A DNA stretch of 61,282 nt, filler included. It is 10 parts of 10 records of this genome, joined end to end, with 100 filler letters (N's around TTAATTAATTAA, not from the genome) between each part and the next. Parts side by side here need not be neighbours in the genome. Positions count along the whole stretch, not along the records: positions 1 to 7,269 come from SRR7504441_244; 9 more parts are not named here. One strand, given 5' to 3'. The position numbers were made by a program, and so were the translations under genes. The notes beneath the pieces were generated by a model. That model was not told where the DNA came from. It saw only the letters and a program-made list of their open reading frames with translations, and did no database searches. Positions 3,196 through 7,369 of this stretch are shown piece by piece. Positions within the stretch are counted from its first letter, which is position 1; every line of letters starts with the position of its first letter.

Positions 3196-3365
3196 GAGTG
3201 TGTTAGAGTTCCCTCGAGCTCCCTGTGCTTTCAGTGTCTCCCCCCACTGCAGCTGGCTTTCAGTTGCCGTTACGTCTCCAACTGCAGCAGGGGCTACTCA
3301 CACCGCACTGATCAGGCGGGCACTCTCCGCGTTGATCGAGCGATCGCGCCTGCTCAGGCGCCTTG

Positions 3366-4407
3366 ATGGGGGCAGCCTGCTGCAATTCGGAGGATTCCGA
3401 CGTGGGCGAGAGCCGGTCGTACGAGGAGCAGGCCGAGCTGCGCGACGAGATCAGCGAGAAGCGCCGGCAGCAGGCCGAGCAGAAGGCGGCACAGCGCCGG
3501 CGCGACGAGGAGCAACGGCAGAAGCAGATCAACGACGAGCGGGAGCGGATAGAGAACCGGATGCGCGAGGAGGCCGAGTCGGCCGAGCGGTCCAGGGCCG
3601 AGAAGGATGCGCTGCAGGCCGAGCTGGAGGGGTTCGAGGCAAGCCAGGTGGGGGGTGGGGCCGGGGGCGGTGCGATGGCGGGGCAGGCGGCGGAGGATGC
3701 GGGGCTGGATGCCGAGCTGGAGACGCTGCGAGCGGTGCCGCAGACCCAAGACCAGATCAAGCAGCTGCCACCCGAAGAGATCAGGGAGAGGTCGTCCAAG
3801 CGAGCGGCCGGGGGTGCGAGCGGGGCTGGCAGGCTGCTCGAGACGCTCGGTCGAGGGGCCGGGAAAACAATTGATCGGATGAACGCCCGGTCGCAAGTGG
3901 CGCTCCTGCTCTCTAACTCGCCCTGGAAGCACGGGCTTAGTCACTATAAAAGCTCGGTGCAGGCGGTGGCAAAGCAACGGCTTGCGCGATGCGATAAGCT
4001 CTCGGACCTGGGGATGATTGAGCTGTTCGGAGGGCCAACCCGGGCGGACGGGGCACGGGCGATGGACCAGGCGGTGAGGGAATGGCGGTCCGAGTGGATT
4101 AATAAAGGCGTTGCGCTCGAGGTCAGTCCTCAGAAGAGACCGAGGAAGCAGGATAACGCCAGCGGCACAGGTGCTGCCCCCTGACCCGTGAGGAGTGGAG
4201 CAGTGCGATAGACGCACTGCTCTGTGCCTCGCGACAGGTTGGTTGTCTGACGGCTGGGCAGCGGCCAAGCCAACGGTGGTGAGTCGGAACGAGGACAAGC
4301 CGAGCCCAAAGGTGGAAGAGACGGAGGAGGAGTCGAATCAGGTGGAGGCGGCGCTGCGCGATTCGATGACCGGGGTGTCGAATTTCATGTCCAAACTGCT
4401 AGATTAA
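3366..4407 (+). CDS. Hypothetical coiled-coil protein, possibly N-acylated (MGAACC)
   Basis: 273-aa ORF with E/R/Q-rich helix. A probable intron at 4171-4237 joins it to the 4195-4407 frame. Confidence 0.55.
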
Positions 4408-4611: not shown

Positions 4612-6369
4612 ATGCGAGCGTGGCTCGTGCTCTGGCTGGGTGCCGCGGCCGGAGGCTCGGACCGGAGCCTGGTGTTCATGAACGGGCTCTCTCGTCCGCT
4701 GGACATCCTTTGGGTCCCCGCGGACGGCGGCGCGCCGGTGCCGCAGGGCCAGCTCCCGCCGGCCCAGCCCAGCACCCCTGGCCAGTCGGTGATCGGAACC
4801 TACAAGGGTCACAGCTTCAGGCTGCGCGAGCCGCGCGGCGAGTTCATCTCCGGGCTGCTTACGCACGACGGCGGCCGCTACAATCTGGTCGCCGTGGCCG
4901 TGACGGGTCAGCCATCGCTCCTGGCCGCCGGAGAGCTCAGGAGGCTGGTCAGCAGTCAGGCGGCTGAGTGCGGCGCTGGGCCGACAGAGGCATGCGTCAA
5001 GGCGGCCGGTCTGCGGGCGGGCGGGATCGTGCTGCCAGAGCCGCTGGTGGACCAGCTGTGGCGAGAATACGACCCTGCAAGGATGGCACCCAGAGTGGTC
5101 CCGCCCGAGTCTGTGCGGCGGGAGGCCGGGCCGCAGGACAGGCTGGTGCTGCTCAACCGGGCGGATAAGCCGGTGACAGTCGGCTGGCTCTGGCTGGATC
5201 CAGAGGACTCTGCAGTGGATGGCTTCTCGCCTGAGAGCTCAGTGATGCCTGCAAGCGACAGCGTCACTGCAGAGCAGCAGCGAGGTGTAGGCAGCGTGCC
5301 TGCGGGTGTATCGGGCAGTGCGAGCGTCCTGATGGTCCGGGCTAGCCCCGGGCAGCGGTTCTTGCTCTCGACTGGGTCCGGTCGGAGCCTTGTAGCTGAT
5401 TATGGAGGCGAGATGGCGATTGTAGACTTGTTTGAACATGGAGGCCAGCTGAACGCAACGGTCAGGACCGAGGATCAGCTGAAGATGCAGCTCGGGAGGG
5501 TGGCCGATGACTGCTTAGTCGAGCAGGCCGGCCACGACTGGCCAAAGAGCAAGCCTGGCTGGTCGCGCTGTGTCTCCCGATCGCTGCGAGTTGAGTCTGT
5601 GGATCTGGATCTAGGCTCGCATTGGTTTAGGCAGCTTTGGGGCTCGCCCGATCACTGGTGGCTGTGCAATCACCGGCCAGCGGCCCGGCCACTCGCGAAC
5701 ATCAGCATCCAGCTCTCGGGCCGCACTCTCTCGGCAGAAGTGTTCCGAAGAGAGCCTTTGTTAGTCATGATGATACACGGAGTCGCCTCGACCAGCGAGT
5801 GCGCCTTGCTAGCCGAGCGCGGGATGAAGGGGCTGGGGATGGCGCACGTCGCCGGGGGCGGCCACTCGCGCACCCGCCGGACGCTTTCTAAGGACCTTTA
5901 CCCAGACCTGCAGGATGACGACTCGTTGGTAACGCAAATCGCTCGGAGGTTTTTCGAGCTGACCAGCGTGGTTACGGGTTTTGATCTGAAGCCGGAGGGG
6001 CAGGAGCCGATCAACTGGTTGCACTATTTAGGCGGGTATGAGTACCGGCCGCACTGCGACGGCGGGTGCGGACAACACAAGGTGCGGAAGTTTGACCGAG
6101 TGGCCACCACACTGCTCTACTGTCAGGCCGCCGATGAAGGCGGCAGCACCGTGTTCACCCGGGATCCGATCCGAGTGGTGCCGCGGGCCGGCTCTATGCT
6201 GCTGTTTACTTACGACTCGGATCCGACCAGTCTGAGCGAGCATGCGGCCTGTCCGGTGCTGGCAGGCACCAAGAGCACGGCGACTCAATGGTATCGCGAA
6301 GGGGTCAGCCTCAAACGGAACTGGGAGGGCAAGCCAGTCCGAATGAAGCGGGCAAGGGACGATTTATAG
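4612..6369 (+). CDS. Secretory-pathway prolyl 4-hydroxylase-like 2OG-Fe(II) dioxygenase with two N-terminal VHL-beta-like domains
   Basis: Signal peptide. P4Hc motifs YRPHCDG, RVATTLLY, GGSTVF, HAACPV, GTKSTATQW. C-terminal RDDL. Confidence 0.85.
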   Translation: MRAWLVLWLGAAAGGSDRSLVFMNGLSRPLDILWVPADGGAPVPQGQLPPAQPSTPGQSVIGTYKGHSFRLREPRGEFISGLLTHDGGRYNLVAVAVTGQPSLLAAGELRRLVSSQAAECGAGPTEACVKAAGLRAGGIVLPEPLVDQLWREYDPARMAPRVVPPESVRREAGPQDRLVLLNRADKPVTVGWLWLDPEDSAVDGFSPESSVMPASDSVTAEQQRGVGSVPAGVSGSASVLMVRASPGQRFLLSTGSGRSLVADYGGEMAIVDLFEHGGQLNATVRTEDQLKMQLGRVADDCLVEQAGHDWPKSKPGWSRCVSRSLRVESVDLDLGSHWFRQLWGSPDHWWLCNHRPAARPLANISIQLSGRTLSAEVFRREPLLVMMIHGVASTSECALLAERGMKGLGMAHVAGGGHSRTRRTLSKDLYPDLQDDDSLVTQIARRFFELTSVVTGFDLKPEGQEPINWLHYLGGYEYRPHCDGGCGQHKVRKFDRVATTLLYCQAADEGGSTVFTRDPIRVVPRAGSMLLFTYDSDPTSLSEHAACPVLAGTKSTATQWYREGVSLKRNWEGKPVRMKRARDDL

Positions 6370-6515
6370 CACTGCATGGCGTTTATCACATTTTTATTGA
6401 AAGGCTACTGTATACGTTTGTTTACACGTTTATCATCGGTATATTATTGGTTGTTAATGGTGCGTGTTTTTTTAGCGTGTTATTATCGTGACATTACATG
6501 TAGTGTGCGATACCA

Positions 6516-7269
6516 TTACGTTACGACACAGCCGGCACACGTCCTGGCTGGCCCCGCCTTCGCCACGTCAGGTATCCGCAGATCCCGGCGCCCGTCCTCG
6601 TCCATCACCGCCCCGGCCTCACTAGCCAGCATCAGCTTGACTGTAGATGCCTGCTGCGCTGCTAGCACTAGCGCGCTCTTCCCGTGGCTGTTGTGGCATC
6701 CGAGTGACCCACCTGCCTCCACAAGCATCCGAACCACTTTCTCATACCCCGACGGCTCGGCCTCCATCAGCAGGCGCCACTGCACCACCGTCTCGCACTG
6801 GGCACCGGTCAGCTCCACCCTGGGCACCACACGCGCACCATTTGGAGCAGCTGCGGCTCCTCGACAGCCAGCTCTGAGCAGGTGGCTGAGCAGAGCTCTC
6901 GCCACTGCGATACCTGCACGCCCTAAGCCTCGTGCCAGGCGCTGCCCAGGCCTGGGCCCGGTCGCGGTAGGCCAGCGTCTGTTCGGCCACGCTGGTGAAG
7001 CCCTGGAGCGCCACCAAGTGCAGCGGCGTATCCCCGTGCTGACCGGCGCCCTCGGCCCCCGCCGGGGCGGCGGCCGGCGCCTGGTTCTGCGCCGCGACGG
7101 CTGCGCCGGCCGCGAGCAGCAGCTGCCCATCCGTGGCACCAGGACAGCCCGGGCGGTGCCTTTGTGGACTCGGCGTCCCCGGCGCCAGCAGCCAGATGCA
7201 GCGGTGTGTTGCCGAGCTGTCCGCCGATTCAAAACTGGCGCGTTGCGCCGGCGCGCCATGTTGCGGGCG
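6516..7269 (-). CDS. Ankyrin-repeat protein (5' truncated, multi-exon)
   Basis: After removing short introns it reads LGNTPLHLAAGAGDAESTK-LLLAAGA, HGDTPLHLVA and HGKSALVLAA. Confidence 0.8.
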
Positions 7270-7369
7270 NNNNNNNNNNNNNNNNNNNNNNNNNNNNNNN
7301 NNNNNNNNNNNNNTTAATTAATTAANNNNNNNNNNNNNNNNNNNNNNNNNNNNNNNNNNNNNNNNNNNN
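7270..7369. other. Artificial contig linker
   Basis: N44-TTAATTAATTAA-N44, stops in all six frames. Confidence 0.98.

What the first reader, a model, noticed from the sequence alone, without database searches (positions are those of the whole stretch)
4612..6369. Prolyl-4-hydroxylase fused to two VHL-beta-like domains with an ER-retention-like tail: possible hydroxyproline writer-reader fusion
Seen: signal peptide, then LVFMNGLSRPLDILWVPADG..GQLPP..IGTYKGHSFRLR (from 4669), a second degenerate copy LVLLNRADKPVTVGWLW..ASPGQRFLL, a complete P4H catalytic set (HxD, H, K) and terminal RDDL. Known: the pVHL beta domain follows the pattern F.N...V..W...G.....L.PG....SY.GH.W..R and binds hydroxyprolyl peptides made by 2OG prolyl hydroxylases. 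Inference: product reader and writer on one ER-luminal chain. That would be a ubiquitin-independent VHL-hydroxyproline partnership that could give processive hydroxylation of secreted Pro-rich proteins and hint at the ancestry of PHD-VHL oxygen sensing. Similar architectures may already exist in other algae, so novelty is unverified.
Basis: partly seen in the sequence, partly recalled or inferred. Interest (0 to 1): 0.78.

Follow-up and report, generated by a model that had tools for sequence, protein, structure and literature searches.

The report
Prolyl hydroxylase fused to VHL-like domains
A probable dinoflagellate gene encodes a secretory-pathway enzyme that makes hydroxyproline, fused to two copies of the fold that the human VHL tumour suppressor uses to grip hydroxyproline, so the enzyme may hold on to its own product.

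Summary
Window 4612-6369(+) is one intact 585-aa ORF. It has a short hydrophobic N-terminus and a complete collagen/plant-type prolyl 4-hydroxylase domain: PF13640, with H481-x-D483, H544 and K554 aligned to solved P4Hs. It ends in RDDL.

The N-terminal 360 residues are a tandem duplication of a beta-sandwich-plus-helices unit (hhalign 95.9%, E 6e-9).

Unit 1 is a true but divergent VHL beta domain.
- Its profile matches 34 bacterial Pfam-VHL domains at 95.2%, P 2.6e-8. None of 150 shuffles comes near.
- Five of the six hydroxyproline-pocket positions are kept or conservatively replaced: W34, I61, T63, H67, F69. The Tyr98 equivalent is lost.

Unit 2 has lost the polar pocket residues, and Pfam's own VHL model misses both units.

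Full-length relatives were found only in dinoflagellates, and all six known C-termini end in [DE]L. A single-unit version lies on another eukaryotic metagenome contig (L130).

Hydroxyproline binding is inferred, not shown. The catalytic domain is not PHD-type, so the link to oxygen sensing is weak. I found no report of this architecture in four literature searches.

The parts
4612..6369 (+). Whole gene: single-exon ORF of 585 aa plus stop codon (P0001)
   Evidence: ORF list and translation. It aligns full-length to P0002 and P0003.
4612..4659 (+). Residues 1-16: short hydrophobic N-terminus, probably a cleaved signal peptide
   Evidence: Hydropathy peak at residues 3-13. Relatives P0002, P0003, P0004 and P0007 have similar hydrophobic N-termini. 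pLDDT is below 50. No signal-peptide predictor was run.
4660..4923 (+). Residues 17-104: unit 1 beta-sandwich, a divergent VHL beta domain. Pocket-equivalent residues are W34 (4711-4713), I61, T63 (4798-4800), H67 (4810-4812) and F69 (4816-4818).
4924..5127 (+). Residues 105-172: unit 1 helical sub-domain carrying Cys120 and Cys128
   Evidence: Helices in the AF2 models. It aligns with the helical part of unit 2, including both Cys.
5128..5469 (+). Residues 173-286: unit 2 beta-sandwich, a degenerate copy of unit 1 with a long low-confidence insert at about 197-234. The pocket Thr and His are replaced (A243, Q248); F250 is kept.
5470..5679 (+). Residues 287-356: unit 2 helical sub-domain carrying Cys301 and Cys320
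5689..6309 (+). Residues 360-566: prolyl 4-hydroxylase catalytic domain (double-stranded beta-helix). It carries H481 (6052-6054), D483 (6058-6060), H544 (6241-6243) and K554 (6271-6273).
   Evidence: Pfam PF13640 at 46.7 bits against a cut-off of 27. phmmer to B. anthracis P4H gives E 1.3e-13, with the ligand residues aligned. Human C-P4H-II alpha, Chlamydomonas P4H and PBCV-1 P4H also match. Foldseek on the full model agrees.
6355..6366 (+). Residues 582-585: C-terminal RDDL, a KDEL-like ER-retrieval candidate
   Evidence: Six of 6 family C-termini end in [DE]L: RDDL, SDEL, SPEL, RKEL, HNDL and TSEL. The residues before them vary in sequence and length.

Best explanation
The gene encodes a soluble, ER-retained prolyl 4-hydroxylase of the collagen/plant type.

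Its N-terminal 360 residues are a tandem duplication of a VHL-like unit. Each unit is a beta-sandwich followed by a small helical bundle with a conserved Cys pair.

Unit 1 is a genuine but divergent member of the VHL beta-domain superfamily. It keeps the core of the hydroxyproline pocket: Trp, Ile, Thr in place of Ser, His, and Phe in place of Trp.

The most likely mechanism is that unit 1 docks the enzyme on extended Pro/Hyp-containing stretches of secretory substrates. It probably prefers 4-hydroxyproline that the catalytic domain has just made, which would keep the enzyme on partly modified Pro-rich chains. Unit 2, which has lost the polar pocket residues, probably acts as a spacer or scaffold.

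Shown here: the ORF, the P4H domain and its ligand residues, the duplication, the homology to VHL, and the conserved tail.

Inferred: ER residence, peptide binding, preference for Hyp, and any processivity.
For: P4H domain and catalytic residues.

Internal duplication.

Fold of unit 1.
- The AF2 model has mean pLDDT 82, and about 88-96 in unit 1.
- In the unbiased search of 48,161 chains, the two VHL rows are the only 2 of the 50 listed rows with 20% identity or more. The next highest is 16%.

Sequence homology.
- The module-1 profile against 6 bacterial PF01847 domains gives 72.5%, P 3.2e-5. None of 120 column shuffles reaches that score.
- Against 34 bacterial PF01847 domains it gives 95.2%, P 2.6e-8, score 45.4. 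In 150 shuffles the mean is 10.0 and the maximum 18.4.
- The same bacterial profile finds human pVHL at E 2e-9.

Pocket mapping through.
- W88=W34, I109=I61, S111=T63, H115=H67, W117=F69. The pocket residue list comes from PMC6650433 (passages).
- W34, T63, H67 and F69 are invariant in 5 of 5 dinoflagellate-family members.
- L130 has Ser at the T63 position.
- The bacterial VHL domains also carry Thr or Ser there.

Language-model neighbours of residues 15-172 include two clusters carrying PF01847, both at 0.87, which is below 0.9 and so a lead only.

ER residence: [DE]L ends 6 of 6 family tails. There are paired Cys in both helical parts and two N-x-S/T sequons.

Precedent: pVHL binds COL4A2 only after ER prolyl hydroxylation (PMC13560369, passages). 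A VHL pocket can therefore read Hyp made by a collagen-type P4H.

Independent recurrence: L130 carries one such module upstream of a related P4H.
Against: - Pfam's VHL model does not hit the protein, its relatives or L130 at E<=10.
- HMMER profiles of module 1 do not find VHL among PDB sequences.
- The hhalign match covers only the first 48-49 columns, roughly the N-terminal half of the sandwich.
- The Tyr98 equivalent is not conserved.
- The structure is a prediction from only 7-8 sequences, and I could not inspect coordinates. Pocket geometry is therefore unverified.
- No binding or activity data exist.
- No substrate is known.
- RDDL departs from the canonical x-[DENQ]-E-L signal.
Confidence: 0.5

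Rival explanations
1. The VHL-like units are a substrate-binding region for unhydroxylated Pro-rich (polyproline-II) chains. They would be functionally analogous to the peptide-substrate-binding domain of the collagen P4H alpha subunit, with no preference for hydroxyproline.
For: - The Tyr98 equivalent is missing and Trp117 is Phe, so the pocket is not canonical.
- Collagen P4H carries a separate substrate-binding domain N-terminal to the catalytic domain (established knowledge, recalled).
- The position of the units N-terminal to the catalytic domain fits that layout.
Against: The two residues that hydrogen-bond the 4-hydroxyl in pVHL are Ser111 and His115. That role is recalled; the pocket membership is from PMC6650433. 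Their equivalents T63 and H67 are invariant in 5 of 5 family members. L130 has Ser/His there. That is hard to explain if no hydroxyl is read.
Confidence: 0.25
2. The units are generic luminal beta-sandwich modules whose VHL ancestry has no functional meaning. They might bind glycans (CBM-like or HGSNAT-LD-like), fold or scaffold the enzyme, or drive oligomerisation.
For: - The top fold match is the HGSNAT luminal domain, proposed in print to bind heparan sulfate (PMC11357348, passages).
- Unit 2 has lost the pocket yet is retained in all full-length members.
Against: - Identity to those folds is 7-15%, against 22% to VHL.
- Profile-profile homology to VHL domains is significant.
- The conserved residues of module 1 coincide with the VHL pocket rather than being spread over the fold.
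Confidence: 0.15
3. Unit 1 binds a hydroxyproline on another ER protein or on the enzyme itself. It would then serve regulation, retention or complex assembly rather than substrate handling.
For: pVHL uses the same pocket for protein-protein recruitment (established knowledge). The family lacks a canonical KDEL in 5 of 6 members, so an extra retention mechanism is conceivable.
Against: No candidate partner is known. The Pro-rich loop of module 1 (residues 36-57) is not conserved in sequence. This reading is pure inference.
Confidence: 0.1

Closest known systems
Human pVHL beta domain (Pfam PF01847; e.g. PDB 1VCB, 1LM8, 4AJY)
   Same: - Same spacing of F-x-N...W...L-P-P...I-x-[ST]-Y-x-G-H-x-aromatic.
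- Pocket positions W88, I109 and H115 are identical. S111 is Thr and W117 is Phe.
- The sandwich is followed by helices.
   Different: - It does not reach Pfam's model.
- Tyr98 is not kept.
- The loop between W34 and T63 is six residues longer.
- It sits in a secreted/ER-luminal protein, not a cytosolic Cullin-2 ligase.
- No superposition on the VHL alpha domain was obtained. The VIA alignments stop at residue 154-155.
- It occurs as a tandem pair fused to an enzyme.
Collagen prolyl 4-hydroxylase alpha subunit (e.g. human P4HA2, PDB 7ZSC), Chlamydomonas Cr-P4H-1 (2JIG), PBCV-1 P4H (5C5T), Bacillus anthracis P4H (5IAX)
   Same: The catalytic domain matches all of them, at E 1.3e-13 to 1.5e-6, with the HxD...H...K set. 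It shares the ER-luminal setting and an extra N-terminal non-catalytic region, as in the collagen enzyme.
   Different: - The N-terminal region is VHL-like, not the helical peptide-substrate-binding domain of collagen P4H (recalled).
- It has its own [DE]L tail instead of retention through a PDI beta subunit (recalled).
- Plant and algal P4Hs are type II membrane proteins without such modules (recalled).
Bacterial VHL beta-domain proteins (PF01847), e.g. the retron type X accessory protein (PMC7736814)
   Same: They are Pfam-defined VHL domains outside any ubiquitin system. They carry Thr or Ser at the Ser111 position and His and Trp at the 115 and 117 positions. They give the significant profile match to module 1.
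   Different: - They are bacterial.
- The domain lay at or near the C-terminus of the open frame in the six read in full. Frames holding a match ranged from 125 to 889 aa.
- They keep the Tyr98 equivalent and a Cys pair inside the sandwich.
- None of those examined is fused to a P4H.
- PMC7736814 (passage) states that their function is unknown.
HGSNAT luminal domain and AlgF C-terminal domain (transthyretin-like sandwiches)
   Different: Identity is only 10-15%. No shared motif was tested. No link to proline or hydroxyproline is known.

Membership tests
Prolyl 4-hydroxylase, collagen/plant type (2OG-Fe(II) oxygenase, Pfam PF13640) | Double-stranded beta-helix domain scoring above the family cut-off | tested here: met
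   PF13640 at 46.7 bits against a cut-off of 27, residues 470-562. The Foldseek top hits of the full model are P4H structures.
Prolyl 4-hydroxylase, collagen/plant type (2OG-Fe(II) oxygenase, Pfam PF13640) | Fe(II) triad His-x-Asp...His and the Lys that binds the 2-oxoglutarate C5 carboxylate | tested here: met
   H481, D483, H544 and K554 align with the corresponding residues of B. anthracis P4H (alignment printed). They are invariant in the 3 full-length sequences of A1.
Prolyl 4-hydroxylase, collagen/plant type (2OG-Fe(II) oxygenase, Pfam PF13640) | Closer to P4Hs than to HIF prolyl hydroxylases (PHD/EGLN) | tested here: met
   All 8 distinct PDB sequences matched at E<=10 are named prolyl 4-hydroxylases or procollagen-proline dioxygenases, or share their entries. 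No PHD/EGLN chain is listed.
Prolyl 4-hydroxylase, collagen/plant type (2OG-Fe(II) oxygenase, Pfam PF13640) | Formation of trans-4-hydroxyproline in peptides | not testable with these tools
   This needs an enzyme assay.
VHL beta domain (Pfam PF01847) | Match to the Pfam model above its gathering score (21 bits) | tested here: not met
   There is no PF01847 hit at E<=10 for the whole protein, for the 5 module-1 sequences or for the L130 module.
VHL beta domain (Pfam PF01847) | Profile-profile homology to sequences that Pfam's model does recognise | tested here: met
   Unit 1: hhalign gives 72.5%, P 3.2e-5 against 6 bacterial domains and 95.2%, P 2.6e-8 against 34. None of 120 and none of 150 column shuffles reach the observed score. 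Unit 2: not met on its own, at 0.2% and 3.2%.
VHL beta domain (Pfam PF01847) | Beta-sandwich superposable on pVHL residues about 63-154 | tested here: met
   [not shown]
VHL beta domain (Pfam PF01847) | Hydroxyproline pocket W88, Y98, I109, S111, H115, W117 (PMC6650433) | tested here: inconclusive
   Mapping through searches gives W34, I61 and H67 identical, T63 for Ser (as in the bacterial VHL domains), F69 for Trp, and Q45 for Tyr98 with no conservation. Geometry could not be checked because no coordinates were accessible.
VHL beta domain (Pfam PF01847) | Binding of 4R-hydroxyprolyl peptides | not testable with these tools
   This needs binding assays with Pro and Hyp peptides.
pVHL orthologue (substrate receptor of the Cullin-2 ligase) | Alpha domain with a BC-box that binds Elongin C; cytosolic or nuclear protein | tested here: inconclusive
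   The VIA superpositions end at VHL residue 154-155, so the alpha domain is not matched. The longer Foldseek alignments (about 150-165 columns) have rmsd about 15 Å. The signal-peptide-like start and the [DE]L tail argue for a luminal protein. The BC-box motif was not tested with a tool.
Soluble ER-resident proteins with a KDEL-type retrieval signal | N-terminal signal peptide plus C-terminal [KRHQSA]-[DENQ]-E-L (PROSITE pattern, recalled) | tested here: inconclusive
   RDDL does not fit the strict pattern and P0002's SDEL does. All 6 family tails end in [DE]L despite variable preceding residues. No signal-peptide predictor or localisation data were available.

The most novel reading that the evidence does not exclude
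This would be a natural hydroxyproline writer-reader enzyme. Unit 1 would specifically bind the 4R-hydroxyproline that the fused P4H domain has just made. That would tether the enzyme to partly hydroxylated Pro-rich secretory proteins and give processive or spreading hydroxylation.

It would also show that the VHL pocket served as a hydroxyproline reader in partnership with prolyl hydroxylases outside animals and outside ubiquitin ligases. The single-unit form in L130 would be the simpler, possibly ancestral, architecture.
Probability: 0.3. Interest if true: 0.8.

Novelty: new variant of a known kind. Interest (0 to 1): 0.64.

Why it matters
pVHL is the textbook reader of hydroxyproline, but it is known as part of a cytosolic ubiquitin ligase in animals. 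Here a divergent VHL beta domain with most of the pocket intact is covalently joined to an enzyme that writes hydroxyproline, inside the secretory pathway of a protist.

If the module binds Hyp, this would be the first writer-reader enzyme for this modification that I am aware of, comparable to chromatin enzymes that carry readers of their own mark. It would give a simple, testable model for how Pro-rich wall or matrix proteins become densely hydroxylated.

It would also widen the evolutionary picture of the VHL pocket. Public records name the two relatives that carry a name (P0003 and P0007) only 'Fe2OG dioxygenase domain-containing protein', and they carry only PF13640. The N-terminal units are thus unannotated at present.

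If the module does not bind Hyp, the finding is a new accessory-domain architecture for P4Hs with a small phylogenetic range.

Tried and rejected
Sequence-only detection of VHL failed.
- Pfam hmmscan at E<=10 found no VHL on P0001, on the five module-1 sequences or on the L130 ORFs.
- hmmsearch or phmmer of module-1 profiles A4 and A5 and of the L130 module against PDB sequences returned no VHL. The hits were ribosomal protein eS6 (E 0.17 and 0.029), YdhK and others, which I take as chance.

Searches for more relatives found few.
- The word-index search with A4 at similar lengths found nothing at E<=10 among 1331 candidates.
- The 'longer' search returned only the known family plus one weak row, P0009 at E 0.15.
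- The first Atlas call, on residues 1-370, gave no usable hit.
- The earlier-findings look-up by sequence found no look-alike.
- The genome-contig scan with A1 matched 34 pattern stretches, none a relative.

Whole-genome route.
- No genome is held for the window, so paralogue counts and a search for a canonical VHL in this organism were impossible.
- tblastn of P0001 against the window found no second copy.

Route to bona fide VHL sequences.
- PF01847 was not found in 3 of 3 handle genomes.
- It was not found in 401 of 401 genomes of the order around a Vibrio handle.
- It was then found in 5 of 401 genomes of the phylum over the cut-off, and in 44 of 301 genomes of one order.

Other comparisons.
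- Module 2 against VHL domains was not significant.

Expression.
- Three coded marine poly-A metatranscriptome runs from three studies each hold one contig of about 200 nt, with 2-3 mismatched letters each, inside the ORF.
- The shares are small (0.05-0.06) and contigs cannot show transcription, so this is not used as evidence.

Full report
**The gene.** Window 4612-6369(+) is a single 585-aa ORF that starts at the first possible start codon after the preceding in-frame stop. It aligns over 99% and 95% of its length with two full-length proteins. One is from a EukProt transcriptome (P0002, 36% identity). The other is from Durusdinium trenchii (P0003, 33%). The intronless model is therefore complete. 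Other members are a Prorocentrum cordatum protein (P0007) and several fragments. The window is about 52-65% G+C (2-kb windows) and is packed with long ORFs carrying eukaryotic domains. From the nearest relatives I infer a dinoflagellate. No genome is held for the window.

**The catalytic half.**
- Pfam finds only PF13640, at 46.7 bits against a cut-off of 27.
- Against PDB sequences, all 8 matches are prolyl 4-hydroxylases: B. anthracis P4H (E 1.3e-13), human C-P4H-II alpha, Chlamydomonas P4H and PBCV-1 P4H. H481-x-D483, H544 and K554 align to their metal and 2-oxoglutarate ligands. No HIF-PHD chain appears.
- Foldseek of the full-length model agrees. That model is poor in this domain because the alignment is shallow.

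**Secretory and ER features.**
- The N-terminus is a short hydrophobic stretch (residues 3-13). P0002, P0003, P0004 and P0007 have similar starts.
- All six family members with a known C-terminus end in [DE]L: RDDL, SDEL, SPEL, RKEL, HNDL and TSEL. The residues before them vary.
- Each helical sub-domain has a conserved Cys pair.
- I read this as a soluble ER-retained protein. That is inference.

**The N-terminal 360 residues.**
- An exhaustive HMMER search of residues 1-370 against 1.84 billion representative proteins found only 6 proteins at E<=0.001, all of this family.
- Residues 17-172 and 173-362 are homologous to each other: hhalign 95.9%, E 6.4e-9 over 133 columns. The match includes the sandwich and the first helices with their Cys. 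The region is therefore a tandem duplication of a beta-plus-alpha unit.
- AlphaFold2 on residues 1-370 gives mean pLDDT 82, and about 88-96 in the first sandwich.

**Is unit 1 VHL-like? Fold.**
- Foldseek lists dozens of pVHL chains at prob about 1 and E 1.5e-4 to 1e-3. PepT1/2 extracellular domains and the HGSNAT luminal domain also appear.
- HGSNAT-LD, AlgF and SPH are described in print as one unusual transthyretin-like sheet arrangement (PMC11357348, passages). Fold alone therefore does not single out VHL.
- Identity does. The VHL rows have 22%, while all other 48 listed rows have 2-16%.

**Is unit 1 VHL-like? Sequence.**
- HMMER-level methods fail.
- To obtain bona fide VHL-family sequences from a tool, I searched prokaryotic genomes with PF01847. 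The result was 0 of 401 genomes in one order, 5 of 401 over the cut-off across a phylum, and 44 of 301 in one order.
- A profile of six such domains finds human pVHL at E 2e-9, and the alignment is printed.
- The module-1 profile (five family members plus L130) matches those six at 72.5%, P 3.2e-5. None of 120 column shuffles reaches that score: the maximum is 23.4 against 31.0 observed, and the reversed template scores 9.2.
- With 34 bacterial domains the match rises to 95.2%, P 2.6e-8, score 45.4. None of 150 shuffles reaches it (mean 10.0, maximum 18.4). I dropped L136, the sub-threshold hit with stop codons.
- The dinoflagellate-only profile gives 90.9%.
- The match covers 48-49 columns, the N-terminal half of the sandwich, which holds all the pocket residues.
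- Language-model neighbours of residues 15-172 include two PF01847-bearing clusters at 0.87, which is a lead only.
- I conclude that unit 1 is a divergent member of the VHL beta-domain superfamily that falls below Pfam's threshold.

**The pocket.** PMC6650433 (passages) lists Trp88, Tyr98, Ile109, Ser111, His115 and Trp117. Chaining the printed alignments gives this mapping:

| pVHL | This protein | Note |
|---|---|---|
| W88 | W34 | identical |
| Y98 | Q45 | not conserved |
| I109 | I61 | identical |
| S111 | T63 | conservative; bacterial VHL domains also have Thr or Ser |
| H115 | H67 | identical |
| W117 | F69 | aromatic kept |

- W34, T63, H67 and F69 are invariant in 5 of 5 family members, at about 30% overall identity to the window's copy.
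- L130 has Ser at the T63 position. The bacterial VHL domains have Thr or Ser there.
- The Tyr98 position is Q, T, S, L and S in the five members aligned.
- Unit 2 has A243 and Q248 in place of Thr and His. It shows no similarity of its own to VHL domains.

**Relatives with other architectures.** 357 pattern matches gave 3 relatives.
- L129 is a Symbiodiniaceae-like orthologue fragment with an intron.
- L128 is a related P4H with an unrelated N-terminus.
- L130 is a 55%-G+C eukaryotic contig. Its first ORF has a signal-like start and one module (…FWV…INSYDTHKFMIR…). BLASTP against P0001 gives E 2e-5, and the family HMM gives E 6.5e-5. About 250 nt after its stop codon, in the same frame, lies a related P4H ORF. 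I read these as two exons of one gene; this is inferred.
- L130 has no second unit and no [DE]L tail.

**Mechanism.** The product of collagen-type P4Hs is the same 4R-hydroxyproline that pVHL reads (recalled). pVHL binds COL4A2 only after ER prolyl hydroxylation (PMC13560369, passages). The most economical reading is that unit 1 docks the enzyme on Pro/Hyp-rich extended chains, probably preferring Hyp. Unit 2 would be a degenerate spacer. Rival readings are a substrate-only (Pro) binding module, a generic or glycan-binding sandwich, or a partner-binding module.

**Novelty.**
- Four literature searches and one on dinoflagellate P4Hs found no description of a P4H-VHL fusion.
- Bacterial VHL beta domains are in print with unknown function (PMC7736814).
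- Earlier unchecked notes of this scan report VHL-like modules fused to bacterial peptidases, an anti-sigma factor and a protist calpain. A VHL pocket outside ubiquitin ligases is therefore not unique. Its fusion to the writer enzyme is.
- The catalytic domain is not PHD-type, so the link to the origin of PHD-VHL oxygen sensing is speculative.

Noticed in passing
window 1-61282: The window holds many long intronless ORFs with unrelated eukaryotic domains: NUDIX, phospholipase D, carboxylesterase, RCC1 repeats, HlyIII, TPR, VIT and PUF/NOP9. G+C is about 52-65% in 2-kb windows. This is an unusually intron-poor stretch for a eukaryote.
   Followed up: partly
window about 7270-7320: There is a run of N, an assembly gap, just downstream of the gene. 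It shows as X in ORFs 6376-7317 and 7133-7321.
   Followed up: no
L130 1599-3245 (+): On a metagenome contig of another eukaryote, one VHL-like module with Ser-x-x-x-His-x-Phe lies upstream of a related P4H ORF. It has no second unit and no [DE]L tail. The neighbouring gene on the other strand looks like a CCT chaperonin subunit, judged by eye and not tested.
   Followed up: partly
L128 965-2341 (+): A 458-aa relative of the catalytic domain (39% identity) has a signal-like start and a different, Cys-rich N-terminal region with no Pfam match. The same P4H clade has therefore recruited more than one kind of N-terminal module.
   Followed up: no
L131-L165 (unnamed bacterial genomes): In one order of Pseudomonadota, 44 of 301 genomes carry a Pfam VHL beta domain. 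In the six read in full it lies at or near the C-terminus of the open frame, and frames holding a match range from 125 to 889 aa. The consensus is strong (C...F-x-N...W-I-D...Y..L.PG...T-[FY]-x-G-H-P-W...G-x-C). One genome has two such genes side by side, and one 889-aa frame seems to have a second, degenerate copy.
   Followed up: partly
window 4660-4926 (module 1 profile): The only PDB sequence hit of the module-1 profiles is ribosomal protein eS6 (E 0.17 and 0.029), aligned around a G-H-x-x-R motif. I take it as chance.
   Followed up: no
window 3363-4184 (+): The upstream ORF of 273 aa starts with a Gly/Cys-rich N-terminus (an acylation-like start, judged by eye). It continues with a highly charged Glu/Arg/Gln-rich stretch and has no Pfam match.
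   Followed up: no
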